Assembly (NCBI GenBank): GCA_964445515.1
Contig: CAYUKZ010000002.1
Span: 18,655-82,654 of the forward strand
Origin: an uncultured Mycoplasma sp.
GTDB lineage: Bacteria > Bacillota_I > Bacilli_A > Mycoplasmatales > Hepatoplasmataceae
Direction of reading: 5' to 3'
Length of the DNA: 64,000 nucleotides
Translations under genes and position numbers: made by a program
Part shown: positions 10,313-54,305 of the stretch, one piece after another
How the letters are laid out: each line of letters begins with the position of its first letter
Numbering within the stretch: the first letter of the stretch is position 1
The notes under the pieces: generated by a model
Seen by the model: only the letters and a program-made list of their open reading frames with translations
What the model was told of the DNA's origin: nothing
The model's database searches: none

Positions 10313-10687
10313 ATGGCTAAAAGATCAAGACAACAAAGACAATCTAACGTACATAACTCTGCAAGAAGAGTTAGAACAGAAAGAAACCAACTTACTGACC
10401 TAGTTATTCATGGACAATTAGTAACTACTCATGCAAAAGCTAAAGAGTTACAAAAGAAAATGGATAAACTAATTACTTGAGCTAAAAAAGATACTGTTCA
10501 AGCAAGAAGAGAAGTTGCCAAAGTTCTAAGACACGTTAACATTACTGAAAAACAAGACGCAGTTCAAAAATTATTTGCTGATATTGCACCAAAGTACAAA
10601 GAAAGAAATGGTGGATACACAAGAGTATTAAAATATGGGCACAGAAAAGGTGATGCTTCACCAATTTCAATAATTGCATTTGTTTAA
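10313..10687 (+). CDS. rplQ: 50S ribosomal protein L17
   Basis: ...LVIHGQLVTTHAKAKELQKKMDKLITWAK...ERNGGYTRVLKYGHRKGD. One in-frame TGA. Confidence 0.9.
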
Positions 10688-10693
10688 TAAACA

Positions 10694-10720
10694 AAAACAC
10701 CCTAAAAGGGGTGTTTTTTT
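10694..10720 (+). terminator. rho-independent terminator after rplQ
   Basis: ACACCC-TAAAAG-GGGTGT followed by T7. Confidence 0.8.
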
Positions 10721-10773
10721 AGTTAAATTTAGGAAAAATACTCAATTTATACTATTTTTCCATAAAATCCCCC

Positions 10774-10821
10774 ATATTCATAGCCTTTCCCAAAAAAAAA
10801 AAAAAAAAAAAAAATGAATAT
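10774..10821. promoter_or_regulatory. 8-nt inverted repeat ATATTCAT / ATGAATAT bracketing a C-rich block and the poly(A) tract
   Basis: ATATTCAT at 10774-10781 and its reverse complement ATGAATAT at 10814-10821. Between them lies AGCCTTTCCC plus the A-run. Confidence 0.5.
10792..10814 (+). repeat. homopolymeric poly(A) tract, 23 nt
   Basis: Counted directly as 9+10+4 A. It ends 20 nt upstream of TATAAT (10835-10840), so it occupies the -35/UP-element zone of the putative promoter of the surface-protein operon. No other homopolymer I noticed in the window exceeds about 8 nt. Confidence 0.95.
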
Positions 10822-10834
10822 CGAAAAAAAGTAT

Positions 10835-10840
10835 TATAAT
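10835..10840 (+). promoter_or_regulatory. putative -10 box (TATAAT) of the surface-protein operon
   Basis: Only canonical -10 hexamer between the rplQ terminator and ATG 10928. An RBS-like AAGGA at 10913-10917 precedes the ATG. Confidence 0.45.
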
Positions 10841-10927
10841 TTATATGAGTGAAATTTTAGGCCTAAACGGTCTATTTATTCTACGTATCGTATATAAATA
10901 TATGAATTAAATAAGGATCTTAAAATT

Positions 10928-13900
10928 ATGAAGAATAACAAGAGAAGAATAATCAGAAAAACCTTAAACTTGACCCTACCAATAGTAGCGGTAGTTTTAT
11001 TCTTCCCTTCTGTTATTAATTTAACTAAAACAAAAGGTCAAATTGCTTATAATCAAATCCAAGAATCTAAATTAGAAGATGAAAAAGCAAATGGATCAAC
11101 TAGAATACAAGCAACTAATTATCCAATGTATGGTAAAACTGACGGGGGAAATGCTAACTGAGTTAGGATAAACAGTTTTAGAGAAGGGAATATTAATAAA
11201 GGTAGAGCCGATTATGGTTATTGAAAGAGACCTGCTTATTCTGCTTCTTTAAGTAGAGACCCTGCATGGTATGATTTCTATAGATATGATGATGCGAAAG
11301 GAAAAGAAGTTTCTTTCAAAGATGAACACAATGTTGAACTTAGAGGTCTTTACTTCAACAAAGATAGTAATTACTGAAATCATTCAAACAATATTGATGA
11401 AATAGCCAATCAAGTATTAAGTGAGCATTCTGCAAAAGAAAATGCCTATTCTATTCATCCATCAACAAGTTGAGTAGATACAAGAGGTCAAAATTCTAAT
11501 TACTTTTTCTATGCCAATTTAGGAGTTGGTGTAGCTGAAGAAGAATGAGTAGATCCAAAAGTTCAAGCTTCTTCTGAACATAATAAGAAACATGGAATTA
11601 GTTGATTAACAAACTATTTTAAATTGAAGTATTCAACAGAGTATAAAGTAGCATATGATGATTTAGATGGGTTTAATTCTAAAAACAATTTCACATTTGA
11701 AACTCCTACTCTATTAGATCTTCAATTAGGAACTCCAGTAATTCAACCTGGCGTTAATGATGTTTACATTGAAATTCCTTATACAACTGGAGTTGAAGGT
11801 TTAAAAGGTGACGGTTCAAATTATAATAAACAAGATTCTTATGTAATACCAGTAGAATATTGAGATATTTTATTCGATGCTTCTGGTACATCTTTTAATA
11901 TGTCAAATATGGAAGCCAACCAAGATGTGGATAACCAGAAATTTATTGTGACAGTTAAAAACCTTGAGCAAGCAACTGATTATAATGATTGAAAATTATC
12001 AGGAATGAGTTATTGAAATGGTTCAAAGAAAGTTTCATTACCAGATCTTGAATTCGGTCCATTACATACTAATGGTATGGCTGATGAAGCTACTCTTAAA
12101 TCATGAGATTCATCAACTACAAAACATACAGCTGATATAAATTATGTACTAGATCTTGAGAATGTAGCTAATTCTACTTATCAAGATGATCCTTTCGCAT
12201 GAAAAGTAGAAATTGATGATGGACATGGTAATGTTCTTGCATCTGAAAAATCAGATGGTACAACTTCATTAGAAACAGGAACACTTACAGTAAATGAAGT
12301 TGAATCAACTCCATTACAAGCCGGAAGAACATATAATTGAAAATTAAAAGTATATGGTGATAGGTATAACCCTAGCAACTTTACTTCTACAGATATTGAA
12401 GTAACTACAAAACCATTAGATAACGCAGAAGCACCAGATTTCTCAACTTTAAAAACAGATTGAAGAAACATTGGTAAGCACTCTGCTACTTTAGACTATT
12501 CATTCGACATGAATACTTATGACATTAACCCTGCATTAGCAGATAATGAAAATAGTACTGTTGATTCAGTTTATTTAACTAGCAATAATATCTCCTATAC
12601 AGTTAATTCTTCTGTAAGTACACCAAATATGGTTGATAATGGAGATGGGACTAAAACATATTCAGGAACTATAGATTTAACAGATTTAGATCCAAATATA
12701 ACATATGATTTAGCATTGAGTGTAGATTGAAAATCAAATAGTTGACCTGATTTTAAAACATCTTCAAATGAAGTGCCTTCATTTGATACCGAAAATTGAG
12801 ATGCTCCTGAAGCACCTGAAATTTCATTAAATGAAAAAACAGATTCTGTTAACCCAGAAGGTTTTATTGTTCAAGGAAACTTTGATGGAACAAGTTATGA
12901 TCCAGTAAATCAATTACCAACAAACATCGATTCAATTAACTTAATGTATTCACTAAAAGGTGATGAAAGTAATCCTATTGAAACACTAACAAAAACATTC
13001 TCTTCAGATACTAATTCATGAAATGGAGAATATGAAATCAAAAATCTACAACCTAGCACTGAATATTCTGTTTGAACAGAAGTAACATATTCAGCTAAAG
13101 GTTCATCAGATTTCGATGGATTAAAAGAAAAATCTTCAGTTATTAATATCACTACTGATGCATATGAAAAAGTACAAATTAGTGATTTCCAATGAACAGC
13201 TAATACATCAAAACCTTCACAAGGTCAATTTGATATTAAAGTAACATCTGGACATGTTGGAGATAACTGATATAACCCAGTTGTTGATGAAAACTCAATT
13301 ATTGTTAAAGATAGCGAAGGTAAGAGATTGAATGCTACTTATGTAAGTAATTCAAAAACAGAAGGTACATATACATATAAATTAAAAGAGTTGCAAGGTG
13401 GAAAAACATATAATGATGTAACTGTAAGTCTTAACTCAAATGAGATTAAAACATCATTTACTACAGCAGATTTATTAGCACCTAAAGCGCCTATAATTAC
13501 TGAACCAACTGTTTCAGGAATAACACAAACATCAGCAGATGTTAAATATTCATTCACTGCACAAAGTGGTAGTTCATTAGATTACTTGCCAACTAAAGTT
13601 GAAAAAGTAGAACTAATAGATTCTAAAACTTCAAATGTATTATCAACAGCGTCTGATACTTCAGAAAGTGGAACTTTCAAATTATCAGGATTAGAAATTG
13701 AAAAAGAATACACTGTTAAAGTAAGAGTTACATATTCAGGTGGATTAACTGAAGAAAGTACTGAATTAACATTCAATACTAGCGACTTCAAACCAGCTCA
13801 AGCTCCTACTATAAATATATTAGAAGAAAATGAAGCTGGTACTACTCAAACAGAGATTCAAGCTCACTATAAAATTACTGTACCTAACAAATCTGGATAC

Positions 13901-15193
13901 AACCCAACAAAAATTACTTCAATCACTGCTAAAATTGATGGAGCAAATGAACAAATTCTAGATCCTACAACTCTTGAAGGAGATGTTACATTCACAGGTC
14001 TAGAAGGTGGAACTACACATGATATTTCATTAATAGTAGTATGAGATGATTCAGTAGATCCAATCTCAGGAGTTACTCCAGTAGAAAGAACTGAAAGTAT
14101 TTCAACTAAAGCTAAAGATGATGCAAAAGAACCATCAATACAAATACTTAAAGTATCTAACATTCAGCAAAATACAGCAGATATCGATTACGTAGTTAGC
14201 ATACCTCAAGGAAGTCCCACAGTTGATCCAACTGTTGTTACAAGAATTGACGTGTTAATTAATGATGTTGTTCAATCTACAGTAAATAATCCTTCACCAG
14301 TAAAAGGTGAGTATAAAGGTAAATTTGAAGCAACAGGTTTAGCTGCAGAAACTGATCAAACAGTGAAAATTAATGTTTACTACTTAGACGAATCTGGAAT
14401 AGAAGTACCTACACCTATTTCTAAAACTAAAGATTTCACAACTTTAAATAAAGATGAATCTAAAGAACCTGCTGTATCAATTAAGAATACTTCAGTAAGT
14501 TCTTCATGAGCTGAATTCTCAGCAGAAGTTACATTACCAGCACATGATGATAATGTTTATGATATTAATATTGTAAGTTATTCAATCATTAAATCAGGAA
14601 TTGAATATTCTTCAGGAGATTTAACATCAATTAACTTTGAAATGGGTAAAAAGACATCATTCACATTCCAAATTGATGGGTTAGCAGAAGTTAAGACATA
14701 TAGCGACTTCTCATTAAAACTTAATTATGAAGATGAGAAAGGTAATGTTCAAACACCAATTACAAGTGATGTTCCAAAATTCACTACAAAATCAATTGAT
14801 GATGTAGTTGTAACAAAATCAGTATTAGAAGAGGATGAGTTATCTATTGGTTTAGATAAACAAACTACTTCAATAGATGAAGTAAGAATCTTAGGAACAA
14901 ATTCTAATGGAGAACAAACTTCACTAGATTATGAAATTACTTCAGTAATTGAACATTCTAGATGAACAGAATATACTGTTGATCTAAACTTAGATAATGA
15001 GTATCAATCATTATCATTAGAAGTTAATGGAGAAGTCCAAAAACTAAATCTAATTGACGAAAGCGGAAACGTTATAAATTCAATTGGTTCAAATAACAAT
15101 TCGATTGCAAAAACAACAGCTATTGTAACACTAGTTATAGTACTTGCAGTTACAGCAACAGGAACGATTGTATATTTAACAAAAAAGAAATAA
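10928..15193 (+). CDS. giant membrane-anchored surface protein A (1421 aa): signal/anchor + aromatic-rich N-domain + ~10 FN3/Ig-like beta-sandwich modules + C-terminal TM anchor
   Basis: Six track ORFs plus the gaps form a single frame with no TAA/TAG (checked codon by codon) and many TGA. N-terminus is KRRIIRKTLNLTLPIVAVVLFFPSV with no Cys lipobox. Recurrent ~95-100-aa modules end in FN3-like strands (NLQPSTEYSVWTEVTYS, LSGLEIEKEYTVKVRVTYS, FTGLEGGTTHDISLIVVW, DLDPNITYDLALSVDW, LQAGRTYNWKLKVYG). C-terminus is TTAIVTLVIVLAVTATGTIVYLTKKK*. Confidence 0.85.
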
Positions 15194-15205
15194 GGAATTA
15201 ATTAA

Positions 15206-18200
15206 ATGAAACTAAAAAGAGCATATAAAAAACCTATAATGATAACAGCAATTTCAATAATTGCTATTTTAGGTTTGAATAGTGTGCAACAAGTCAACAA
15301 CGGAATACAAAACACTGTTCTTGACAGAAACTTAGTTAATTCACAAGCGGCTTCATCAACTCCTAAAGACTTACATGGTCAAGAAATCAAAGATATAGCT
15401 ATGAATGACAAAGAAACATTTGTTATATTTACAGATATCGATGGAACTCAAGCGGTAATGCATTGAGGAGTAAATGAAGGATATGAAAGATCTCAAAAAT
15501 TAGCTATCCCTGTAGAAGAAGGGGATACAATAACTAATGTATATGCTGACTTTGGCGTTGCATTTGCTGTTGTGTTAAAAGCTGATGGAACAAATTCAGT
15601 TTATGGATATGGAGATAACTCTCATAAACAAATTACACAAGGAACTGAAACTAATATCACAACTCCTACTCTAGTTAAAGAAGGAATTCAATTAAGTGAT
15701 ATTACAATTGACAGATACACTTCTTCAATATATTATGAAGAAGGTTCTGACCTTAAAGTATTATCACAAGGTGATAATAGATATTCAGGACTTGGAATTG
15801 CTGATAAAAAAGCAACAATAAATGAAACAACAGTAGCAGGAACAACATTAGTTAGCGCTGATGCTGGTTCTGCTCATACAGCAGTAGTACTTGATGGTGC
15901 TGCTGATGGAGTTTATACATGAGGATTAAACTCTAACGGACAAATTGGTAATGGTGTATTAACTCATCCAGAAGATGGTGGTATTTTACCAGTTAAAGTA
16001 GATGGATTAGATGACGCAGTAGAAGTTTATGCTGGTGGAAATAATACATTTGCAATTACACCAAATGGAAATACAGAAAAAATTTGAGGTTGAGGTTCAG
16101 GTACAAACTATGAACTAGGTACTCAAACTGTTAAGTCTGAAACAACACCTCTTGAATTAACTAAATTAGAAACAGTTATTGAAAATGGTAAAGCAGGTTC
16201 AAGTTGAGATGTTGTTAATATGTACTCTGGACAAGACTGAAGTGTAATGTTCATCGAAAGAGATGGAATTGTTGAGAGATATGTATGAGGAAACCAAAAA
16301 GATGGTAAGCTAGGTAATGGTGTTACAGATGATGTAAGTACAGATTTCACTATGAGTGAAGAGTTAACACCTAATGGAGACTTAATCAATAAAGATCAAT
16401 TCATTGCCTTTGATGGTAATAGTGATACTATCTTAAAATCATTAAGAGTAGATGACTTCTCAATCCTTGAAGGATTCGGAGCAAATACAAATGGAGCATT
16501 AAGCCCTAGAGGTGGAGCAACACCTGTTCCAAAAGCAACAAAGATTTATTCACAAGATCAATTATTAGTTACAGAAGTTAATAATGTTAAAGCATTAGAT
16601 GATAATTCATTTACATTTGATGTAGTTATGGATACAAATGTTGTTGATGCTGCATCTATGAACTTTGTTCTTAAAACTTCAAAAGATTCTAAACTAATGA
16701 CTGATACTAAAGTAACAGGAATTGATAGACAAGGAGATAAAACAGTTTTATCATTCTATCAAAAAACAAACTTCGTTAACAATGGTGGAAACACTGTTGG
16801 ATTCAAAGTATCTGTTGATGGAGGAAAGACATTCTTAAAAGAATTCAATGTTAAATATCAACTTTCTCCTTCTGAAGCAGCTACAGTAGTTGCTAGTGAT
16901 GCAACAAATGTTAGTTATAACTCAGCTGATATTAATTTTGAAATTTCTACAAGTAATTCATCACACAATGCAAACTCTACAGTAACAAAATGAGAAATAT
17001 TAGATGAAAAAGATAATGTAGTTTCATTTAAAGATATGAATTCAACTGAAGGAAAAATCTCTGTTACTCAATCAGTTGATAACTTAACTGCAGGAACAGA
17101 ATTCGCAGGTTGAAAAGTAAAAGTTTACTCTACATATGGAGATTCAGCTAGTCCACAACAAGCAATTGAGACGGCAAACATACCAACATTCAAAACATTA
17201 GACAAGAAGAATGTTCCGGCATTAACTGCAAATGACTTTGCAGCAGAATCATGAACTACTAACAAAACAGAAGCTTCATTAAAATATACAATTAAAGATT
17301 CAGCAGCAACAAAAGATACATTTGGATTAGATATTACAAATGTTAAACTTCTTGGTAATTGAACAAACAATGGATTGTCAGGTGGAGCAGTAAACATTGA
17401 TTCACAAGCGCCAGTTTTAAACTCAGCCAACGGATTATGAGAAGGTCAAATTAATTTAACTAACCTTTCTCCTGAAACAACATACAATAATCTTAAAGTA
17501 GAAGTATCTTACCAAAATAAAGATGCAGATTCGTCATTATTAAATCCTAGAAAGATAGAATATTCATTATCAGATTTAATTACTGAAGATTATAATGCTC
17601 CTTCAGAGCCTAAACTTACAATTACTGAAAAAGATTCTAACATTACATCATATTCATTTGATATTGATGTAACTGTTCCTACAGCAGATCCTGCTGTTTC
17701 AAGACAAACTAAGATTAAATCAGTTGATTACAGAACTAAGAGTGAAGGAGATTCATTTACAGCCTGAGAAAGTGCCGGAGATGTAACAGATCCTACAAAA
17801 GGATTTGCTTCAACAATCGAAATCAACAATGCTGTTGCAGAAACAGTTAATACTGTTGAAGTTAAAGTAACATATACTGATGTTGATAACATAGCAAAAC
17901 CAACGCCAGTAACAGAATCTATCGAGATTACAACAAAACCTAAAAACGATAATGTTGTTGGTCCTAATGTAACAGTTATGGAATCAGAAGAGACAGATAC
18001 AATTAATGTATTTAATCTAAAATTAGTTATTTCTGGATTAGAAGCTGACGAAGAGACAAAAGGAATTAATGTTGATAAAGCATATATCGATGTCTTTGAA
18101 GGTTCAGGTATAGATCATACTGGTACACCAGTTCAATCAGTTGAACTTACAGAAAATAAGGAAAATGAAGATTGAGAAAGTAATGTAACACTATCTCCAT

Positions 18201-19597
18201 CAACAACATATACTCTATGAGGTAGAGTAGAATGATCTTCAGGAAGTAATGTTGGTCAAACTTCTTGATCAGATTCTTCAAAAGAACTATCTAACGAAAG
18301 TAAAGATCCTTCAATAGAGCCAACAATTAATGTTGATCCATCTAAGGAACTATATTTAGGTTCAGATGGTCAATGACACTATAATGGATTCAATGTTGAT
18401 ATTCAAAATGATCCTCAACATCACTTAACAACAGTAACAAGTATAGAAGTTACACTAGATAGCAAGGCAATTTACACTGAAAAATTTGATAAACAACAAA
18501 CATCATTCGATGTTAATGCAATGTTCAGTAAAGATGCAACGGACTTTAATACAGAGTTACATAATCTTGCAATTGAAGTTAATTGAGTTTATAGAGAAGA
18601 AGGAAGTAGTAATACAAACAAGACTACTATCGGAAAAGCTGAAGATGTTAAACTAATCAAGTTAGAAGAATCTTCACAAGATCCAGAATTCAGAGTTGAA
18701 TACTCATCTGTTCAATCAGTTTCTTCAACTCAAGCATTAGTTTCATACAAAATTTCTAAGAAATACAAAAATGCTAATGACCTAGTAATTGATAACTCAA
18801 ACACTCAAATACTTATAGCAGGTAAAGAAGATAATACTCCATTTGCACCAGTAACAGTAGTTGATGGTTCAACAGGAATAGATCCATTCGAAGGTTCATT
18901 TATTATTGATAACCTAAAACCAGGAACAAATTATGAATTTGCCTTTATAGTTAAATATAAAGAGAAATATCCAAATTGAGCTCCTAACAATAATTATTTA
19001 TCAGATGATAAATATGAATTAGGTGTTAAAGAGCAAGGTAACAACTTACCAAACATTGTTTTAGTTGAAACACTAAAAGAAGATGAAATTGGACTAACAC
19101 AACCTAAAGTAGTATTTGATAGTTATGAAGATAACACTCTTAACACTAAGATATCATTATTCAATGCTCCTAATGTAGAAGCTTTATCTAAAGCTAAATT
19201 AAGAGTTAAAGAAGAAACTGGAGTTAAGGGATACGAAGGTAAGATAGTTGAAAAAGATATTTCATTCACAAAAGTTGGTTCTAACAACTCAAGAAACTCT
19301 TCTGCTTCAGATATGAAGCAAGATGAATACATAATGTCTATCAAAGATATTAAAAAAGATACACTTTACTCACAATGAGAGTTAGCATTAGATGGTGAGA
19401 ACTATTATACAATTAACTTAACTGATGAAGCAGGTAACATAGTTTACACTCCATCGGCTTTAAGTAATGTTAGAGAAATTAGTGGTATTTGAAGAATACT
19501 AGCATTGATTGGATTAGCACTTTCAATTGTATTCGGACTTACAACTGCATTATTCTCATGATTATTTGTGAGAGCTAAAAGAGGAGGAGATGAATAA
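15206..19597 (+). CDS. giant membrane-anchored surface protein B (1463 aa): signal + RCC1-like 7-blade propeller + ~10 FN3/Ig-like modules + C-terminal TM anchor
   Basis: Single frame checked codon by codon. Starts 12 nt after gene A, preceded by AAGGA. Signal-like N-terminus PIMITAISIIAILGL. RCC1-type blade motifs VYGYGDNSHKQITQG, VYTWGLNSNGQIGNG, KIWGWGSGTNYELGTQ, RYVWGNQKDGKLGNG. Downstream FN3-like strands NLSPETTYNNLKVEVSY, LKPGTNYEFAFIVKY, SPSTTYTLWGRVEW. C-terminus is WRILALIGLALSIVFGLTTALFSWLFVRAKRGGDE*. Confidence 0.85.
15386..16556 (+). other. RCC1-like beta-propeller region of protein B (approximate bounds)
   Basis: About seven repeats of 50-60 aa, each with a hydrophobic strand followed by (W/Y)G.(N/G/D)..G(Q/K/E)(L/I)G. 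Confidence 0.6.
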
Positions 19598-21342
19598 TGA
19601 AATTAAATAAAACAACAATTATCTCTTCTGTGTTCTTAGCACTAGCATTATCAATGCCAGCTGCTTCAATACAATCAACAGTTCAAACATTTAGTGATGA
19701 AAACATCATCCCAACTAGACACTCTGTTGATAAGATTAAATCTATTGAATTAGGTTCAGATTCATCTACAATAGTATTTGATTCACAAGATACTCTTCAT
19801 GAAGATGAAGTATTAACAGCAGGTTACGATCAAGCTGTATGAACAAGTTATGATGGGTTACAAACTCAAGATACATCAGGAATGTTAGGTAGAGGTGAAC
19901 CAGTTAAAAACAATTCATATGCTCAAAATATCGACTTCTATAATGACCAAAGAGGAGAAGGTAGTGATAGAACAGTTAACAGAATGGTTGTAGAACAAAT
20001 AGATGCTGGAGAAATATTCTCTGGAGCTATTGTTAGAGAATGAGATGAAGAATACCCAGATGGAATCCTTAGAGGATACATGTGAGGTGGAGATATCAAT
20101 AACGCAACTATTCCTGAATTAGAACCAAAATCTAGTTCAGCCAAAGGTGTTGATGATAATCAAGTCACTAAATCATATACAACTCCTGTCACAATCGATT
20201 TAGATGGTGACGGAAATGATGGTATGGAAGTTGAAGGTGAAATATCAGTTGGTTATGACCACGCCGTAGCTAAAGCCTATGATCCAAACGGAAACCTAAA
20301 TGGTGGAACACCATTACCAGGACAATTATTCACTTGAGGAAATAATGACTTCAGACAAACTGGAGCTGATTATGTAACAGGTGATTTAGCTGCTCCTTCA
20401 CTTATTCCAGATTCATACTTTGGTGATTTAACACCAGAGAGTGGTTCTGATGAAATAATGTTCAAAGATGTAGAGTATGGACTAAGAGATTCATTCGCTA
20501 TTGTTCACAATAGTAATGATGATAAAGACCATTTATTTGCATGAGGTAATAACGACAAAGGACAACTAGGATTATCAAGTGATAATATAGTTGCTAAACC
20601 AAAAGAAGTTGTATTACCAGGATTTGAAGGTGAAATGATCAAAGTTGTTGCAGCAAAACAAACAACATACTTACTAACAAAAGATAAAGATGGTGTGTAT
20701 GATGTTTGAGGTTGAGGAACAAATGATAAACAATCTTTAGGAACTAAAAAGAATGGTTCTGTAGTAAGTGCAAATGAAAGAATTACACCTACTAAACTAG
20801 ATGTAGTTGGAAACAACTCAAAAGATATTGGAGAAGACTACAAAATTACAGGTCTTTACTCTAACATGCTATCTTCAACAGTATTTGTTACTATGGAAGA
20901 TAGTAATGGAATGAATCATGCTATGTCATGAGGAGATAACTCTAATGGACAAATGGGGCAATGAGGATTCGGAGTCCAAACTTCAGCAACACCTAAAGAA
21001 CTAGACGTTAATAACGATGGTGTATTAGGTACTGAGAGTAAAATTAAAGAAATTTCAGTAGGTTCTGATGCCGTTGCAGCAATTTACGAAAGTAAAGATG
21101 GAACACAACAACAAGTTTACATGTGAGGAAACAACACAACTGGAATATTCGGTTGAGGTGATAAAAACTTAAATGATAAGTTAACTCCTTCATTAGTATG
21201 AACATACCAAGAAAGCAAGAATAACTCTAGCGGATTAGCATTTATACAAATACTTTCAATAGTATTCATGGTACTGGCACTAATATTAATATTAGCAACA
21301 GTCCTAATGTATAAATTATGAATGAAAGCTAGATATGAATAA
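19597..21342 (+). CDS. membrane-anchored RCC1-like propeller protein C (581 aa)
   Basis: The ATG overlaps the stop of gene B (TAATG). Frame checked line by line. Signal peptide ISSVFLALALSMPAAS with no lipobox Cys. Blade motifs YMWGGDINN, LFTWGNNDFRQTG, LFAWGNNDKGQLGLS, DVWGWGTNDKQSLGT, AMSWGDNSNGQMGQW, VYMWGNNTTGIFGWG. C-terminus is FIQILSIVFMVLALILILATVLMYKLWMKARYE*. Confidence 0.85.
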
Positions 21343-21369
21343 AGAATAGATTAATCTATTCTTTTTTTT
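21342..21369 (+). terminator. rho-independent terminator ending the surface-protein operon
   Basis: AGAATAGATTAATCTATTCT palindrome followed by T8, immediately after the stop of gene C. It is the first terminator-like structure after 10720. Confidence 0.8.
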
Positions 21370-21406
21370 ATACTCCTTCAAGATTGAAGTTTAGTATAAT
21401 TAGTAT

Positions 21407-22315
21407 ATGGAGTTTAAGTTTGAACAACAAACAGAAAAGAGATTAGATCAATATTTATCATTAATGATAGAAGATGTATCAAGAGAAAGATTGAAATCTC
21501 AAATCAAAGAAGGTTTTGTAACAGTTAATGGAAATGTAGTTACAAAACCAAACACTAAACTAAACTTTGGTGATACTGTTGTTGTAAACTTCAAACCTGA
21601 ACAAACAAACGATAAATTAATACCTTGAAAAGAAGGTATCATGCCTGAGGTGGTTTTTGAAAATGAAAGTTTCTTGATTATCAATAAGCCTTCAGGCTTG
21701 GTAGTGCATCCTGGTACAGGAAATTGAGATAATACATTAGTTAATATCTTGATAGCACAAGGATATGATTTATCAATGAAAGACACAATGAGACCTGGAA
21801 TAGTTCATAGAATAGATAAGAACACATCAGGTCTGTTAATCATTGCTAAAACAGACAAATTCCATAATTATATTTCTGAACAATTTGCAGCAGGACAAGT
21901 AACAAAGATTTATGAGTTAATTACTGATGGGAAATACAAAAATTCAAAAGGATTGATAGATGTTCCAATCGGTAGAGATCAAAATAACAGAAAATTGATG
22001 AAAGCTACTTTAGAAAACTCTAAACCAGCTAAATCAATGTTCAAAGTATTAGAATCTTTCAAAGATAATGAATACGTAGAGTATAAAATCTTGACAGGAA
22101 GAACTCATCAAATTAGAGTGCATTCAAAATTTATTGGTGCTCCTGTGTTAAATGACCCAGAATATGGAAGAAGAATTTTTGATCCTGAATTCGGGCAGTT
22201 TTTACATGCTAAAAAATTGTCTTTCAAGGATATGGAAGGTAATGAGCATATATTTGAAGCTGAATTACCTATAGAAATACAAGAAAAGCTAAATGAACTT
22301 AGAGCTTTAAAATAG
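21407..22315 (+). CDS. rluD: RluA/RluD-family 23S rRNA pseudouridine synthase
   Basis: N-terminal S4-like domain (RLDQYL...VTVNG), catalytic HRIDKNTSGLLIIAKT, C-terminal GRTHQIRVH. Two in-frame TGA. Confidence 0.85.
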
Positions 22316-31347: not shown

Positions 31348-31400
31348 TACAACTTTGTGAAAAACATATTTTTTAAGATAAATAGATATATAATTTAATT

Positions 31401-32222
31401 ATGATAAATACATTAAACACATTAAATACATATACAAGAACGGCAGGATCTGCATTAAGTTCTAATCAAGAATCATTCTTAGGACTAACTGAGTCACAAT
31501 GATCATGAATACTATTTGGAATCTTTATCTTAATTATAGTTATGGCTTTTGTTACAGTATCTGTACAAAAGACATTCCAAGAAAAGAATCAAAAGTATGC
31601 TTTAAAACAATCATCAACACAGAAAACAGGAGCTCAAGTTGCATTAGAGATATTAGCAGCTAACGGAATTACTGATGTTCAAGTTGTTGTTGGTAAAGAA
31701 GGACAAGATCACTTTAATCCACAGACTAAAGTAGTATCATTATCTCCTTCAACATACAATTCATCTTCAGTATCAGCAATGGCTATTGCTGCTCACGAGG
31801 TTGGACATGCAATTCAATGACATAAGAAGTCATTTATGATTAGAGTTAGAAGTATTTTGACTACACCAGTGCAAATTGCAACAGGTGTTGGACAAATGTT
31901 CTTCTCACTAGGACTATTCTATATCCTATTATTCGGATTCGGTGCTTGAATATTTGCAATTACAATTGGTGGTATTATTTTATATGGTGCTATGGCAATA
32001 TTCCAATTAATTACATTACCAATAGAGTTTGATGCTTCTAAGAGAGCTATGAAACAAATGAAAGAACTTGGTATTATTAATGGCGCTGATGAAGAAAAGG
32101 GTGCTAAAGGAGTTCTTAATGCTGCTGCAATGACTTATGTTGTTGCCTTCATTACAACTTTATTAACATTCGCATTCTTCTTAATTAGATTCTTACTAAT
32201 CATTATGAATAATAGAGACTAA
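31401..32222 (+). CDS. YugP-type putative neutral zinc metallopeptidase (membrane)
   Basis: HEVGHAIQ zinc motif, hydrophobic N- and C-terminal segments, LPIEFDASKRA motif. Three pieces joined by TGA. Confidence 0.7.
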
Positions 32223-44890: not shown

Positions 44891-44927
44891 AATGAATATT
44901 GACTTTGTCAATATTCATTTTCTTTTT
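44891..44927 (+). terminator. rho-independent terminator after gapA
   Basis: AATGAATATTGAC-TTT-GTCAATATTCATT followed by TTCTTTTT. Confidence 0.8.
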
Positions 44928-47352: not shown

Positions 47353-47402
47353 ATTATTAATATTATATTATAGGAACAAGATTATAAAGATATAATTTAT
47401 AT

Positions 47403-47735
47403 ATGATAAAAGGAATAGGAACAGATATAGTATCAAAAGAAAGAATTAAAAATTCTAATGTTGAGTCTAGATTCTTGAATGAAGATGAAAAGAATCTATT
47501 ACAAAACTATAAAGATGAAGACAGATGAGATTTTATTTCAGGTAGATGAGCTGGTAAAGAAGCTATTATTAAAGCATCTAACAAAGAAATAAGTTATTCT
47601 CAAATATCAATATTGAAATCTGAATCCGGAGCACCAATGGTATATGTAGATGGTGTTAGAAGAGAAGATATCAATATTTCTATTTCACATGAAAAAGATT
47701 ATACAATAGCATTTTCTGTCATTGTAAAGGTATAA
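47403..47735 (+). CDS. acpS: holo-[acyl-carrier-protein] synthase
   Basis: MIKGIGTDIV...W.AGKEAIIKA...ISISHEKDYTIAFSV. 110 aa, split by TGA in the track. Confidence 0.85.
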
Positions 47736-53316: not shown

Positions 53317-53367
53317 CTGAATTTGAAATAAACCAATGTTTTTAACTTTTGAAGTTATAATTTACAT

Positions 53368-54135
53368 ATGAAAACAATAATAGATACACATGCTCACGTA
53401 CTTAAGGCTTCTTATAAAGAAGAATTAACTAATGTGATAGAAGAAATGAAACAAAAGAACATTATTGCCTATAATATTTCATATGATATAAACTCTTCAA
53501 TTGAAACTGTAGAGTTAAGTAAGCAATATGACTTCTTAATACCAGTAGTTGGAGTTCATCCGAATGATTCTAAGGGTTGAGGAGAAGAAATGTTGAACTC
53601 ATTGAAAGAAATTATAAGCAATAATCAAGTTGCTGCTATTGGTGAGATAGGACTTGATTATCATTATGAAGGCTATGATAAAGAAACTCAGAAAAAGGCT
53701 TTCATTGATCAAATTAAACTTGCAATGGAACTTAAACTACCAATTGTAGTTCATACTAGAGACTCATTAGAAGATTGTTATGAGATAATTAAGAACTATC
53801 CTGACCAAAAGTTCTTATTCCACTCTTGATCTGGTGATAAAGAGATGACTAGAAAGTATCTAAGTGTTTCGAATAATGTATATTTCTCATATAATGGAAT
53901 AATTACATTCAAAAATGCTGAATTACAGAAAGAGATAGTTAAACTTATACCTATTGATAGATTAATGTTTGAAACTGACTGCCCTTGATTAAGCCCAGTT
54001 CCTTTTAGAGGTAAAGAAAACTATCCTTGAAGAACAAAAGAAGTTATTGAATATACATCTGGACTATTAAATCTATCATTTGATGAGTTAAATGACATAA
54101 ATAACAAGAATGCAAAAGAATTCTATAAATACTAA
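53368..54135 (+). CDS. tatD: TatD-family metal-dependent hydrolase/DNase
   Basis: IDTHAH, GEIGLDYHY, PIVVHTRD, FETDCPWL. Confidence 0.85.
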
Positions 54136-54163
54136 AAAATAAATGTTTGACATTTATTTTTTT
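54136..54163 (+). terminator. rho-independent terminator after tatD
   Basis: ATAAATGT-TTG-ACATTTAT followed by T6. Confidence 0.75.
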
Positions 54164-54165
54164 GT

Positions 54166-54305
54166 TATAATTGAGAGGTAATAACTTAAGACAGTAGCTG
54201 TCAATGACATAAGTGCTACCGAGGTTTAGAAATTATATGTATTTATACATATGCTTTTAGACACACTTGGTAGTAAGTCAAATATATCCAGTGTGTCTTT
54301 TTATT
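54166..54305 (+). promoter_or_regulatory. extended -10 promoter (TGTTATAAT) plus ~125-nt three-hairpin leader ending in a strong terminator-like hairpin, 35 nt before rplK
   Basis: H1 is a long imperfect hairpin GGTA..ACTTAAGACAG-TAG-CTGTC..CATAAGT..TACC (about 54177-54220). H2 is ATATGTAT-TT-ATACATAT (54235-54252). H3 is AGACACAC(T)TGG-N17-CCAGTGTGTCT followed by TTTTATT (54259-54305). Confidence 0.55.

What the first reader, a model, noticed from the sequence alone, without database searches (positions are those of the whole stretch)
10774..10840. 23-nt poly(A) tract flanked by an 8-nt inverted repeat at the -35/UP position of the operon promoter: candidate slipped-strand phase switch
The A-run is 10792-10814, counted directly. 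It is by far the longest homopolymer I saw; other runs are about 8 nt or less. It ends 20 nt upstream of the only canonical TATAAT (10835-10840) ahead of ATG 10928. It therefore occupies the -35/UP-element zone. It is bracketed by ATATTCAT (10774-10781) and ATGAATAT (10814-10821), with an unusually C-rich block (CCCCC...CCTTTCCC) on the left. In Mycoplasma hyorhinis, length variation of a promoter poly(A) tract switches vlp genes ON and OFF. Homopolymer or short-repeat promoter switches are also known in other mycoplasmas. Here the downstream cargo is a different kind of protein.
Basis: partly seen in the sequence, partly recalled or inferred. Interest (0 to 1): 0.7.

Follow-up and report, generated by a model that had tools for sequence, protein, structure and literature searches.

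The report
Variable poly(A) tract at surface-operon promoter
An uninterrupted run of 23 A's sits just upstream of the likely promoter of a three-gene operon for giant surface proteins in an uncultured crustacean-gut mollicute; its length differs between strains and a sister species has one too, so it is probably a slippage-driven expression dial of a well-known type.

Summary
A23 lies at 10792-10814, the 8-nt inverted repeat arms are present, and a perfect TATAAT lies 20 nt downstream. The tract is the only A/T run of 9 or more in 64 kb, where about 10 are expected.

The organism is not a classical Mycoplasma. It belongs to the Hepatoplasmataceae (UGA=Trp; rpoA 71% identical to Ca. Tyloplasma litorale).

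The tract follows the rplQ terminator. It precedes a tightly packed operon, A (1421 aa), B (1463 aa) and C (581 aa). All three are Cys-free, membrane-anchored proteins with Ig/Fn3-like repeats and RCC1 propellers.

Two new lines of evidence support a contingency locus:
- Nine other assemblies of the same species (99.4-99.9% identical) carry A17 or A18 instead of A23. This is the only multi-base indel in 20 kb.
- A congener (rpoA 87% identical) has the homologous operon (28-31% identity) at a different genomic site. It also has a pure A16, there between TTGATT and TATAAT.

In the window the tract spans about -55 to -33, not the -35/-10 spacer. A sabA-like rheostat is therefore more likely than a Vlp-like ON/OFF spacer switch.

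The inverted repeat is probably chance. No transcription start or expression data exist. This is a new member of a known kind.

The parts
10693..10718 (+). Intrinsic terminator of the rpoA-rplQ unit (hairpin followed by a T7 run). It implies the downstream operon needs its own promoter.
   Evidence: Terminator scan, reported for the minus strand at these coordinates. The plus-strand RNA of 10686-10726 folds at -13.8 kcal/mol, z = -3.3, and is followed by U7. rplQ ends at 10687.
10769..10791 (+). C-rich block (CCCCC ... CCTTTCCC) that contains the left inverted-repeat arm ATATTCAT (10774-10781). Its function is unknown. The C-run next to the tract is C3 or C4 depending on the strain.
   Evidence: Direct reading. 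The C3/C4 polymorphism is shown.
10792..10814 (+). Uninterrupted poly(A) tract, A23. It spans about -55 to -33 relative to the predicted start site. It is the proposed slipped-strand hypermutable element.
   Evidence: Length polymorphism A17/A18/A23 across assemblies.
10814..10821 (+). Right inverted-repeat arm ATGAATAT. Its first six bases, ATGAAT (10814-10819), are the best -35-like hexamer (3 of 6 matches, 15-nt spacer).
   Evidence: The inverted repeat is not statistically convincing.
10835..10840 (+). Perfect -10 hexamer TATAAT. The predicted transcription start is about 10846-10848.
   Evidence: A perfect TATAAT lies within 100 nt upstream of 9 of the 14 other genes preceded by a gap of 50 nt or more. 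Background is about 0.09 per 100 nt.
10858..10874 (+). Small hairpin in the predicted 87-nt leader. Its significance is unknown.
   Evidence: Terminator-like scan. The leader fold is -15.2 kcal/mol, z = -1.9, which is not significant.
10912..10917 (+). Shine-Dalgarno-like TAAGGA, 10 nt before the ATG. Gene A therefore has a leader, unlike several neighbouring genes that appear leaderless.
   Evidence: Direct reading.
10928..15193 (+). Gene A, 1421 aa (translation table 4). It has an N-terminal hydrophobic segment and a C-terminal membrane anchor. It has no Cys. The N-terminal 506 aa are an orphan region, followed by Fn3/Ig-like repeats.
   Evidence: No homologue of the N-terminal 506 aa among 1.84 billion representative proteins. 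Only its own cluster was found among 5.8 billion proteins.
15206..19597 (+). Gene B, 1463 aa. It has an N-terminal RCC1-like beta-propeller, then repeats, then a C-terminal membrane anchor. It starts 12 nt after the stop codon of A.
19597..21342 (+). Gene C, 581 aa. It has a signal peptide, an RCC1-like propeller and a C-terminal membrane anchor. Its start overlaps the stop codon of B.
21343..21370 (+). AT-rich hairpin (AGAATAGA...TCTATTCT) followed by T8. It is the probable end of the operon.
   Evidence: Direct reading. The consensus scan did not flag it because the stem has fewer than 3 G-C pairs.

Best explanation
The A23 tract is a hypermutable simple-sequence repeat built into the promoter region of the A-B-C surface-protein operon of a Hepatoplasmataceae symbiont.

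Proposed mechanism:
1. Replication slippage adds or removes A's. Mollicutes lack mismatch repair (established knowledge), so such changes persist.
2. The tract spans about -55 to -33, directly upstream of a -10-dominated promoter (TATAAT 10835-10840). It abuts a weak -35-like ATGAAT.
3. A length change therefore alters how much A-tract (UP-like) DNA faces the alpha C-terminal domains of RNA polymerase. It also changes the distance and rotational phase of the upstream C-rich DNA relative to the core promoter.
4. The result is heritable, reversible, probably graded (rheostat-like) variation in transcription of three co-transcribed, membrane-anchored, adhesin-like proteins.

In the sister species the equivalent A16 lies inside the -35/-10 spacer. 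There the same slippage would act as a classical spacer-length ON/OFF switch.

Shown here: the tract, its purity, its position relative to TATAAT, length polymorphism between near-identical strains, and its conservation with the operon across species. Inferred: the transcription start, the effect on transcription, and reversibility.
For: 1. The tract is a strong statistical outlier. It is the only A/T run of 9 or more in 64 kb, where about 10.6 are expected. No run of 10 or more occurs elsewhere in about 145 kb of related loci.
2. Length is polymorphic within one species. It is A23 here and A17 or A18 in nine other assemblies. The tract is the only multi-base indel in 20 kb of 99.4-99.9% identical sequence. 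L002 has no substitution between 10600 and 11000 yet differs by 6 A's. Strains with the same flanking haplotype carry 17 or 18.
3. A congener (rpoA 87% identical, same assembly as L006) has the homologous three-gene operon. Identities are A 28%, B 29% and C 31%, with E-values of 6e-43 to 7e-71. The operon sits in a different genomic context. That species also has a pure A16, at L006:547-562, between TTGATT and TATAAT and 19 nt before the ATG. It is the only long run in 21.7 kb.
4. TATAAT is this organism's promoter signature, and -35 boxes are weak (1-4 of 6 matches) at the other promoters. rpoA retains an alpha C-terminal domain.
5. A credible terminator separates rplQ from the operon. A, B and C are 12 nt apart or overlapping.
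6. The cargo is typical of contingency loci. All three proteins have a signal or anchor segment plus a C-terminal membrane anchor and carry Ig/Fn3 and RCC1 domains. Nonsynonymous change is elevated: 21 nonsynonymous to 32 synonymous codon changes in A+B, against 1 to 42 in the eleven neighbouring genes compared (ten housekeeping, one hypothetical). All strain variants keep intact reading frames.
7. There is experimental precedent for tracts next to -35 acting as rheostats through RNA polymerase alpha and UP alignment (PMC4081817). Poly(A) promoter switches are known in mollicutes (PMC10502178, citing Citti and Wise 1995).
Against: - No transcription start site, RNA or protein data exist.
- The promoter assignment rests on a consensus hexamer, and the simple two-hexamer scan did not call it.
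- Differences of one base (17 vs 18) could be homopolymer consensus noise. Only one assembly, the window itself, carries the 6-nt difference.
- Within-population heterogeneity could not be measured.
- A17 and A23 both fully cover the proximal UP position, so the transcriptional effect of this length range might be small.
- The DNA upstream of the tract is C-rich, unlike the A-box UP-like elements of the sabA model.
- Only two species carry the operon, so conservation rests on two cases.
Confidence: 0.6

Rival explanations
1. The tract is a static upstream A-tract. It acts as a constitutive UP-like or DNA-stiffening element that boosts a -35-less promoter. Its length drifts neutrally because long homopolymers slip, and expression is not meaningfully switched.
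For: - Other promoters in the window have T7-T8 runs from preceding terminators at about -35 to -55. Homopolymeric A/T DNA is therefore common at that position.
- A17 and A23 both cover the proximal UP position.
- The commonest length is strongly A17, found in 7 of 10 assemblies. That looks more like a preferred state than free variation.
Against: - UP function does not need 16-23 uninterrupted A's.
- Such long pure runs are otherwise absent from about 209 kb of this clade. A neutral run should acquire interruptions.
- In the sister species the tract fills the -35/-10 spacer and gives a non-optimal 21-nt spacing. A static activator model does not explain that.
Confidence: 0.2
2. The tract is not part of the operon's promoter. 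One possibility is that transcription starts closer to the gene, for example at TATAAA 10893-10898. Another is that it starts upstream, at TATACT 10748-10753 or by read-through, which would put the tract in a 5' leader. In either case the tract would be a slippage-prone remnant of the operon's insertion, or an RNA-level element.
For: - The predicted 87-nt leader is long compared with most genes here, which have 6-39 nt.
- Other -10-like hexamers exist on both sides of the tract.
- A 27-codon ORF starts at the ATG formed by the last A of the tract (10814), and gene callers annotate it at the contig ends of L009 and L010.
- The region downstream of rplQ is a rearrangement hotspot among congeners.
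Against: - Neither alternative hexamer is a perfect TATAAT, whereas 9 of the 14 other upstream regions examined carry a perfect one.
- In L006 the tract lies 5 nt upstream of a TATAAT that ends 8 nt before the ATG. There it cannot be a leader element.
- The rplQ terminator is strong.
- No Rfam family matches the tract or the leader.
Confidence: 0.12
3. The inverted-repeat arms ATATTCAT and ATGAATAT are half-sites for a dimeric regulator, or form a cruciform. The tract then acts as a variable spacer that sets half-site spacing. On this view the switch works through regulator binding rather than through RNA polymerase contacts.
For: The arms are exact 8-nt complements that bracket the tract. Only 2% of shuffles reproduce a bracketing inverted repeat.
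Against: - Both 8-mers are common words in the window.
- The 2% figure comes from a test defined after seeing the repeat.
- The hairpin energy is negligible at -1.4 kcal/mol, z = -1.0.
- A spacing of 26-32 nt between half-sites is unusual.
- I saw no equivalent inverted repeat around the L006 tract when reading; no repeat search was run there.
Confidence: 0.05
4. The tract is a sequencing or assembly artefact, or contamination-related chimeric sequence.
For: The contigs come from eukaryote-host assemblies. Homopolymer lengths are error-prone, and some Logan contigs break at or near the tract.
Against: The same junctions and the same tract appear in ten independent assemblies with intact flanking genes. 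A second species has the same kind of tract.
Confidence: 0.02

Closest known systems
Helicobacter pylori sabA-type promoter-proximal T/A-tract 'rheostat' (Aberg et al. 2014, PMC4081817)
   Same: - A long homopolymer lies directly upstream of, or abutting, the -35 position of an adhesin or outer-protein promoter.
- Length varies between isolates by slipped-strand mispairing.
- The proposed action is through RNA polymerase alpha-subunit and UP alignment, not through the spacer.
- The organism has few classical regulators.
- In H. pylori such tracts occur at several positions (-35/-10 spacer, upstream of -35, overlapping -35) across genes. The two positions seen here in two species fit that pattern.
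   Different: - The phylum is different (Mollicutes).
- The run is poly(A) on the coding strand and is longer, at 17-23 nt.
- The DNA upstream of the tract is C-rich, not A-box UP-like.
- It controls one three-gene operon, not a family of outer-membrane-protein genes.
- No functional data exist here.
Mycoplasma (Mesomycoplasma) hyorhinis vlp promoter poly(A) switch (Citti and Wise 1995, as summarised in PMC10502178)
   Same: - The host is a mollicute.
- The poly(A) is on the coding strand, in the promoter region of surface-protein genes.
- Insertions and deletions in the tract are the proposed switching event.
- In the sister species (L006) the A16 lies between a -35-like TTGATT and TATAAT. 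From my own knowledge of the vlp promoters, that is the vlp geometry.
   Different: - In the window 20 fixed bases separate the tract from TATAAT, so the tract cannot be the spacer.
- The cargo proteins have no Cys and so are not lipoproteins. They are giant, C-terminally anchored Ig/RCC1 proteins.
- There is a single operon, not a multigene family with one tract per gene.
- Pfam gave only fn3 and RCC1-family matches; no direct comparison with Vlp sequences was made.
Mycoplasma gallisepticum vlhA (pMGA) GAA-repeat switch upstream of the promoter (from my own knowledge: Glew et al. 1998; Liu et al. 2000)
   Same: A mollicute simple-sequence repeat located upstream of the -35 position, not in the spacer. 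Its length decides expression of a surface protein gene.
   Different: The repeat is a trinucleotide with one permissive length (12 units). The cargo is a large lipoprotein haemagglutinin family. No homology was tested here.
RCC1-like beta-propeller plus Ig-like proteins of Hepatoplasmataceae (PMC10928387)
   Same: The bacterial family is the same. The architecture matches B and C, with an N-terminal RCC1-like propeller followed by Ig-like folds. That paper proposes these proteins as host-interaction proteins or adhesins.
   Different: A term search of that paper found no mention of phase variation or homopolymers. The A/B/C operon proteins have no close homologues outside two species.

Membership tests
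Promoter-located simple-sequence-repeat contingency locus (slipped-strand phase or rheostat variation) | A long, uninterrupted homopolymer or short tandem repeat (about 9 units or more) | tested here: met
   A pure A23 at 10792-10814. Pure A17 or A18 in other strains. Pure A16 in the sister species.
Promoter-located simple-sequence-repeat contingency locus (slipped-strand phase or rheostat variation) | The repeat lies within or directly next to the core promoter of the regulated gene | tested here: inconclusive
   By prediction, yes. A perfect TATAAT lies 20 nt downstream, and TATAAT marks most promoters here. In L006 the tract ends 5 nt before TATAAT. No transcription-start data are available.
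Promoter-located simple-sequence-repeat contingency locus (slipped-strand phase or rheostat variation) | Repeat length is polymorphic between closely related isolates and faster-evolving than the flanks | tested here: met
   A17 in 7 assemblies, A18 in 2 and A23 in 1, at 99.4-99.9% flank identity. It is the only multi-base indel in 20 kb. Both 17 and 18 occur on identical flanking haplotypes. Caveat: differences of one base may be consensus noise.
Promoter-located simple-sequence-repeat contingency locus (slipped-strand phase or rheostat variation) | Length heterogeneity within a clonal population, and reversibility | not testable with these tools
The only hint is that Logan contig L009 starts inside the tract and L010 starts 8 nt after it. 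Sequencing error could explain that equally well.
Promoter-located simple-sequence-repeat contingency locus (slipped-strand phase or rheostat variation) | Expression of the downstream gene depends on repeat length | not testable with these tools
   No expression data exist, and the organism is uncultured.
Promoter-located simple-sequence-repeat contingency locus (slipped-strand phase or rheostat variation) | The regulated product is surface-exposed or interacts with the host | tested here: met
   This is met by prediction. The proteins have an N-terminal signal or anchor and a C-terminal membrane segment, and Fn3 and RCC1 domains. Nonsynonymous change is elevated.
M. hyorhinis Vlp-type switch | The poly(A) forms the -35/-10 spacer, so its length sets hexamer spacing | tested here: not met
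   In the window, 20 fixed nt plus 17-23 A's would give a spacer of 37-43 nt. The feature is met only in the sister locus L006, where TTGATT-A16-TACAT-TATAAT gives a 21-nt spacer.
M. hyorhinis Vlp-type switch | The cargo is a lipoprotein (lipobox Cys) with a repetitive C-terminal region, in a multigene family where each gene has its own tract | tested here: not met
   A, B and C contain no Cys. There is one operon, and no other long tract in 64 kb.
H. pylori sabA-type rheostat | The homopolymer lies within 20 nt upstream of, or abuts, the -35 position | tested here: met
   The tract ends at about -33, and its last base is the first base of the -35-like ATGAAT. This depends on the predicted start site.
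H. pylori sabA-type rheostat | RNA polymerase alpha C-terminal domain is available, and UP-like elements lie upstream whose alignment shifts with tract length | tested here: inconclusive
   rpoA carries PF03118 RNA_pol_A_CTD. The DNA upstream of the tract is C-rich, not A-box-like. The tract itself may be the UP-like element.
H. pylori sabA-type rheostat | Multiphasic promoter output as a function of tract length | not testable with these tools
   This requires reporter or in vitro transcription assays.

The most novel reading that the evidence does not exclude
A promoter homopolymer travels with a fast-evolving, lineage-restricted three-gene adhesin-like operon in uncultured crustacean-gut Hepatoplasmataceae. 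The operon encodes an orphan head domain and two RCC1-propeller proteins. The tract has shifted between sister species, from the -35/-10 spacer (ON/OFF switch) to the UP/-35 zone (rheostat). This would be the first contingency locus in this symbiont family. It would also be a natural example of one operon converting between the two modes of repeat-mediated control. The implication is that a presumed beneficial ectosymbiont bet-hedges its host-attachment apparatus as pathogens do.
Probability: 0.35. Interest if true: 0.6.

Novelty: new member of a known kind. Interest (0 to 1): 0.45.

Why it matters
Repeat-driven phase variation is classical in pathogenic mycoplasmas, Helicobacter, Neisseria and Haemophilus. 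I found no report of it for Hepatoplasmataceae, the uncultured mollicutes of isopod and other crustacean digestive glands. A term search of the family's comparative-genomics paper found no mention of phase variation or homopolymers.

If the tract tunes the A-B-C operon, three things follow:
- It singles out these orphan giant Ig/RCC1 proteins as the host-facing, selected interface of the symbiosis.
- It gives a simple genotypic marker (tract length) that can be read from existing host sequencing data.
- It provides a two-species comparison of spacer-type and upstream-type homopolymer control of the same operon.

It does not reveal a new mechanism.

Tried and rejected
- **Exact-protein look-up of rplQ.** I used rpoA instead.
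- **Genome-contig scan with rpoA.** It found nothing, so the species is not among the GTDB representatives.
- **Genome-contig scan with an RCC1 (C-family) alignment.** It returned only generic RCC1 proteins from unrelated phyla and no further operon.
- **Metagenome-contig scans.** Neither the exact flanks with a variable gap nor an A/A6 alignment found anything.
- **Homologue searches for protein A.** They returned only its own cluster. The N-terminal 506 aa had no hit among 1.84 billion representatives.
- **AlphaFold on the orphan N-terminal domain without an alignment.** Mean pLDDT was 33.5, which is unusable, so I ran no fold search.
- **Rfam scan over 10600-11000.** It gave only sub-threshold hits on the rplQ terminator and nothing on the tract or leader.
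- **Leader RNA fold.** It was not significant.
- **Inverted repeat as hairpin or cruciform.** I rejected this on energy and word frequency.
- **Stand-alone RCC1 genes in more distant relatives (L007, L014).** They have no long tracts.
- **Literature searches for the assembly and run accessions, to identify the hosts.** They found nothing.
- **Vlp-like spacer reading of the window.** I considered TTTCCC-An-TG-AATAT and rejected it. GAATAT matches TATAAT at only 3 of 6 positions, and TTTCCC matches TTGACA at 3 of 6.
Full report
**Observation**

- A23 at 10792-10814.
- ATATTCAT at 10774-10781 and its exact reverse complement ATGAATAT at 10814-10821.
- A C-rich block: CCCCC at 10769-10773 and CCTTTCCC at 10784-10791.
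- TATAAT at 10835-10840.
- ATG at 10928.

The tract is the only A/T run of 9 or more in the window. The next longest runs are two of 8 nt. With the window's composition (40% A, 29% T), about 10.6 runs of 9 or more and 2.6e-5 runs of 23 or more are expected. The tract is therefore a strong outlier in a sequence that otherwise avoids long runs.

**Organism and gene context**

Reading frames close only with UGA=Trp (table 4), and G+C is 31%. The closest named RpoA sequences are Candidatus Tyloplasma litorale (71%) and Ca. Hepatoplasma species (51-54%). These are Hepatoplasmataceae, mollicutes of isopod and crustacean digestive glands. The contigs that carry this organism are records in very large, many-contig NCBI assemblies that appear to be host genomes.

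Upstream of the tract lie rpsM, rpsK, rpoA and rplQ. rplQ ends at 10687 and is followed by a hairpin plus T7. The hairpin folds at -13.8 kcal/mol, z = -3.3. The downstream genes therefore need their own promoter.

Three genes follow the tract:

| Gene | Coordinates | Length | Relation to previous gene |
|---|---|---|---|
| A | 10928-15193 | 1421 aa | - |
| B | 15206-19597 | 1463 aa | 12 nt after A |
| C | 19597-21342 | 581 aa | overlaps the stop of B |

An AT-rich hairpin plus T8 follows C. This is an operon.

**The cargo proteins**

All three proteins have an N-terminal hydrophobic signal or anchor and a C-terminal membrane segment. None contains Cys, so none is a lipoprotein. B and C carry RCC1-like beta-propellers. 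A gives sub-threshold Fn3 matches in a long repeat region.

Protein A has no homologue outside its own 90% cluster among 5.8 billion proteins. Its N-terminal 506 residues hit nothing among 1.84 billion representatives. A structure prediction without an alignment was unusable, with mean pLDDT 33.5.

The Hepatoplasmataceae genome paper describes RCC1-like propeller plus Ig-like proteins as candidate host-interaction proteins. A term search of it found no mention of phase variation or homopolymers.

**Promoter assignment**

In this window a perfect TATAAT lies within 100 nt upstream of 9 of the 14 other genes preceded by a gap of 50 nt or more. In four cases it ends exactly 6 nt before the ATG, which implies leaderless mRNAs. 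The -35 position matches TTGACA at only 1-4 of 6 bases. Background TATAAT density is 58 per 64 kb per strand.

This is the -10-dominated promoter type known for mollicutes (established knowledge). TATAAT at 10835 is the only perfect hexamer in the 240-nt gap. It is the best candidate promoter, with a predicted start near 10847 and an 87-nt leader. The leader contains a small hairpin (10858-10874) and a TAAGGA Shine-Dalgarno sequence 10 nt before the ATG.

On that assignment the tract spans about -55 to -33. Its last base begins the best -35-like hexamer, ATGAAT (3 of 6 matches, 15-nt spacer). It remains a prediction, and the simple two-hexamer scan did not call this promoter.

**Tract length within the species**

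Exact-protein look-ups recovered the same locus from other assemblies. These are 99.4-99.9% identical to the window over 20 kb.

| Source | C-run + A-run |
|---|---|
| Window | C3 A23 |
| GCA_019825985.1 | C4 A18 |
| Logan SRR15291757 | C4 A18 |
| GCA_019826105.1 | C3 A17 |
| GCA_019826165.1 | C3 A17 |
| GCA_019826185.1 | C4 A17 |
| GCA_019825925.1 | C4 A17 |
| GCA_019826025.1 | C4 A17 |
| GCA_019825885.1 | C4 A17 |
| Logan SRR15291761 | contig starts inside the tract with 18 A's |

The other findings on variation are:
- In the 20-kb alignments the tract is the only multi-base indel.
- L002 has no substitution between 10600 and 11000, and only 21 substitutions in 20 kb, yet it differs by six A's.
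- Identical flanking haplotypes carry either 17 or 18 A's.
- Differences of one base could be consensus noise at a long homopolymer. The six-base difference is unlikely to be noise, but it rests on one assembly.

Heterogeneity within a population could not be examined.

**Comparative evidence**

A search with protein C found one full-length relative (31% identity). Its contig (L006, assembly GCA_040777565.1) carries a homologous three-gene operon:

| Pair | Relative's length | Identity | E-value |
|---|---|---|---|
| A vs A6 | 1716 aa | 28% | 6e-43 |
| B vs B6 | 1421 aa | 29% | 6e-53 |
| C vs C6 | 578 aa | 31% | 7e-71 |

The same assembly contains an rpoA that is 87% identical to the window's. 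Downstream of rplQ it has an unrelated gene. The two organisms are therefore congener-level relatives. The operon sits at a different chromosomal site in each, and its proteins have diverged far faster than the core genes.

In front of A6 the sequence reads TTGATT-A16-TACAT-TATAAT-8 nt-ATG. That A16 is the only run of 10 or more in 21.7 kb. No run of 10 or more occurs in about 145 kb of related loci, apart from this one.

A pure long poly(A) directly upstream of a perfect -10 box has therefore been retained with this operon through relocation and roughly 70% protein divergence. This is hard to explain unless the tract is functional. Other congeners have different genes downstream of rplQ and no detectable operon. 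More distant relatives with stand-alone RCC1 genes have no tracts.

**Mechanism**

In L006 the tract fills the spacer between a 4-of-6 -35 box and TATAAT. A16 gives a 21-nt spacer, and A12-A13 would give the optimal 17-18 nt. This is the classical spacer-length ON/OFF design. The review read (PMC10502178, citing Citti and Wise 1995) places the M. hyorhinis vlp poly(A) in the promoter region; that it forms the -35/-10 spacer is from my own knowledge.

In the window, 20 fixed bases separate the tract from TATAAT, so spacer control is impossible. The tract occupies the -35/UP zone instead.

The best-documented analogue is the H. pylori sabA T-tract. [quoted passage not shown] This changes RNA polymerase alpha-subunit contacts and gives multiphasic, rheostat-like output. 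In H. pylori such tracts occur in the spacer, overlapping -35, or upstream of -35, depending on the gene.

The window's rpoA retains the alpha C-terminal domain. I therefore propose slippage-driven, graded modulation of operon transcription in this species and ON/OFF switching in the sister species. The steps from tract length to transcription are inferred.

**Supporting biology**

Between the window and L001, eleven neighbouring genes (ten housekeeping, one hypothetical) show 1 nonsynonymous and 42 synonymous codon differences. A plus B show 21 nonsynonymous and 32 synonymous. All six A variants keep the full 1421-codon frame. This is the pattern expected of a functional, host-exposed, diversifying surface structure, which is the usual cargo of contingency loci.

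**The inverted repeat**

The arms are real, but both are common 8-mers, with 10 and 11 copies in the window. Of shuffled intergenic regions, 41% contain some 8-nt inverted repeat and 2% contain one that brackets the tract; that second test was defined after the fact. The hairpin is worth only -1.4 kcal/mol. Reading the L006 sequence around its tract, I saw nothing comparable. I treat the repeat as probably coincidental. A role as regulator half-sites is not excluded.

**Rival explanations**

- **Static UP-like A-tract with neutral length drift (0.2).** It is favoured by the strong A17 mode. It is weakened by the purity of the tract, the rarity of such runs, and the suboptimal spacer in L006.
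- **Tract outside the true promoter (0.12).** The start could be at TATAAA 10893 or TATACT 10748. This is weakened by the dominance of perfect TATAAT and by the L006 geometry.
- **Inverted-repeat operator model (0.05).**
- **Artefact (0.02).** Ten assemblies and a second species argue against it.

**Verdict**

- The organism is a Hepatoplasmataceae symbiont, not a Mycoplasma.
- The design in the window resembles sabA more than vlp.
- The cargo is a non-lipoprotein Ig/RCC1 operon.
- The inverted repeat is probably irrelevant.

This is a new member of a known kind of system. It is interesting mainly as the first candidate contingency locus in this symbiont family and for the two-architecture comparison. 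It is not surprising in mechanism.

Noticed in passing
L006:304-332 and L006:372-400: A perfect 29-nt direct repeat, TACTAGTATGTCCCGCTAGATCGGTATCT. It is G+C-rich for this genome and lies about 150-240 nt upstream of the sister species' A16 tract. It is absent from the window and from all other loci fetched.
   Followed up: partly
window 21395-21409, 31389-31403, 47391-47405, 53356-53370: At four genes a perfect TATAAT ends exactly 6 nt before the ATG and there is no Shine-Dalgarno sequence. This suggests leaderless mRNAs are common in this organism. The sister species' operon has the same layout, with 8 nt.
   Followed up: partly
window 10928-19597 compared with L001, L002 and L003: Genes A and B carry many nonsynonymous differences between strains (21 nonsynonymous to 32 synonymous codon changes). 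The eleven neighbouring genes compared (ten housekeeping, one hypothetical) show 1 to 42. Substitutions are most numerous between 12 and 13 kb, inside gene A.
   Followed up: partly
window 10688-10927 compared with L015, L096 and L099 (downstream of rplQ): Every congener examined has a different gene directly downstream of rplQ: an NMN transporter, a small unannotated ORF followed by an RNase III-like gene, or FakA. This position is therefore a rearrangement or insertion hotspot, and the A-B-C operon occupies it only in the window's species.
   Followed up: partly
L011/L103, L013/L105, L102 and L104 (window about 10557 to about 21730-21844): In four NCBI assemblies the operon sits on a separate contig of about 11.2 kb. 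The left end is identical in all four, 371 nt before the ATG of gene A and inside rplQ. The right end falls a few hundred nt into the next gene. Two explanations are possible. Co-resident strains may lack the operon. Or contamination trimming may have removed the recognisably bacterial flanks and left the orphan genes.
   Followed up: no
window 10814-10897: A 27-codon ORF (MNIEKKYYNLYEWNFRPKRSIYSTYRI) starts at the ATG formed by the last A of the tract plus TG. Gene callers annotate it, extended with poly-Lys, at the contig edges of L009 and L010. It is probably spurious if transcription starts near 10847.
   Followed up: no
window 10701-10714: The rplQ terminator differs between strains: ACCCT...T7 against ACTCC...T6. 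The changes keep the stem paired, which is consistent with a functional terminator.
   Followed up: no
window 44892-44918: The two 8-mers of the finding's inverted repeat recur as parts of a 12-bp perfect hairpin, ATGAATATTGAC-TTT-GTCAATATTCAT. This hairpin is followed by T's and lies after the GAPDH-like gene, so it is a probable terminator. The recurrence shows that these words are common palindrome building blocks here.
   Followed up: no
window 54140-54266: Upstream of the rplK/rplA-like genes, TTGACA is followed after only 13 nt by TATAAT, and then by a 95-nt leader. The TTGACA is therefore probably not a functional -35 box. The leader may be a ribosomal-protein autoregulatory leader.
   Followed up: no
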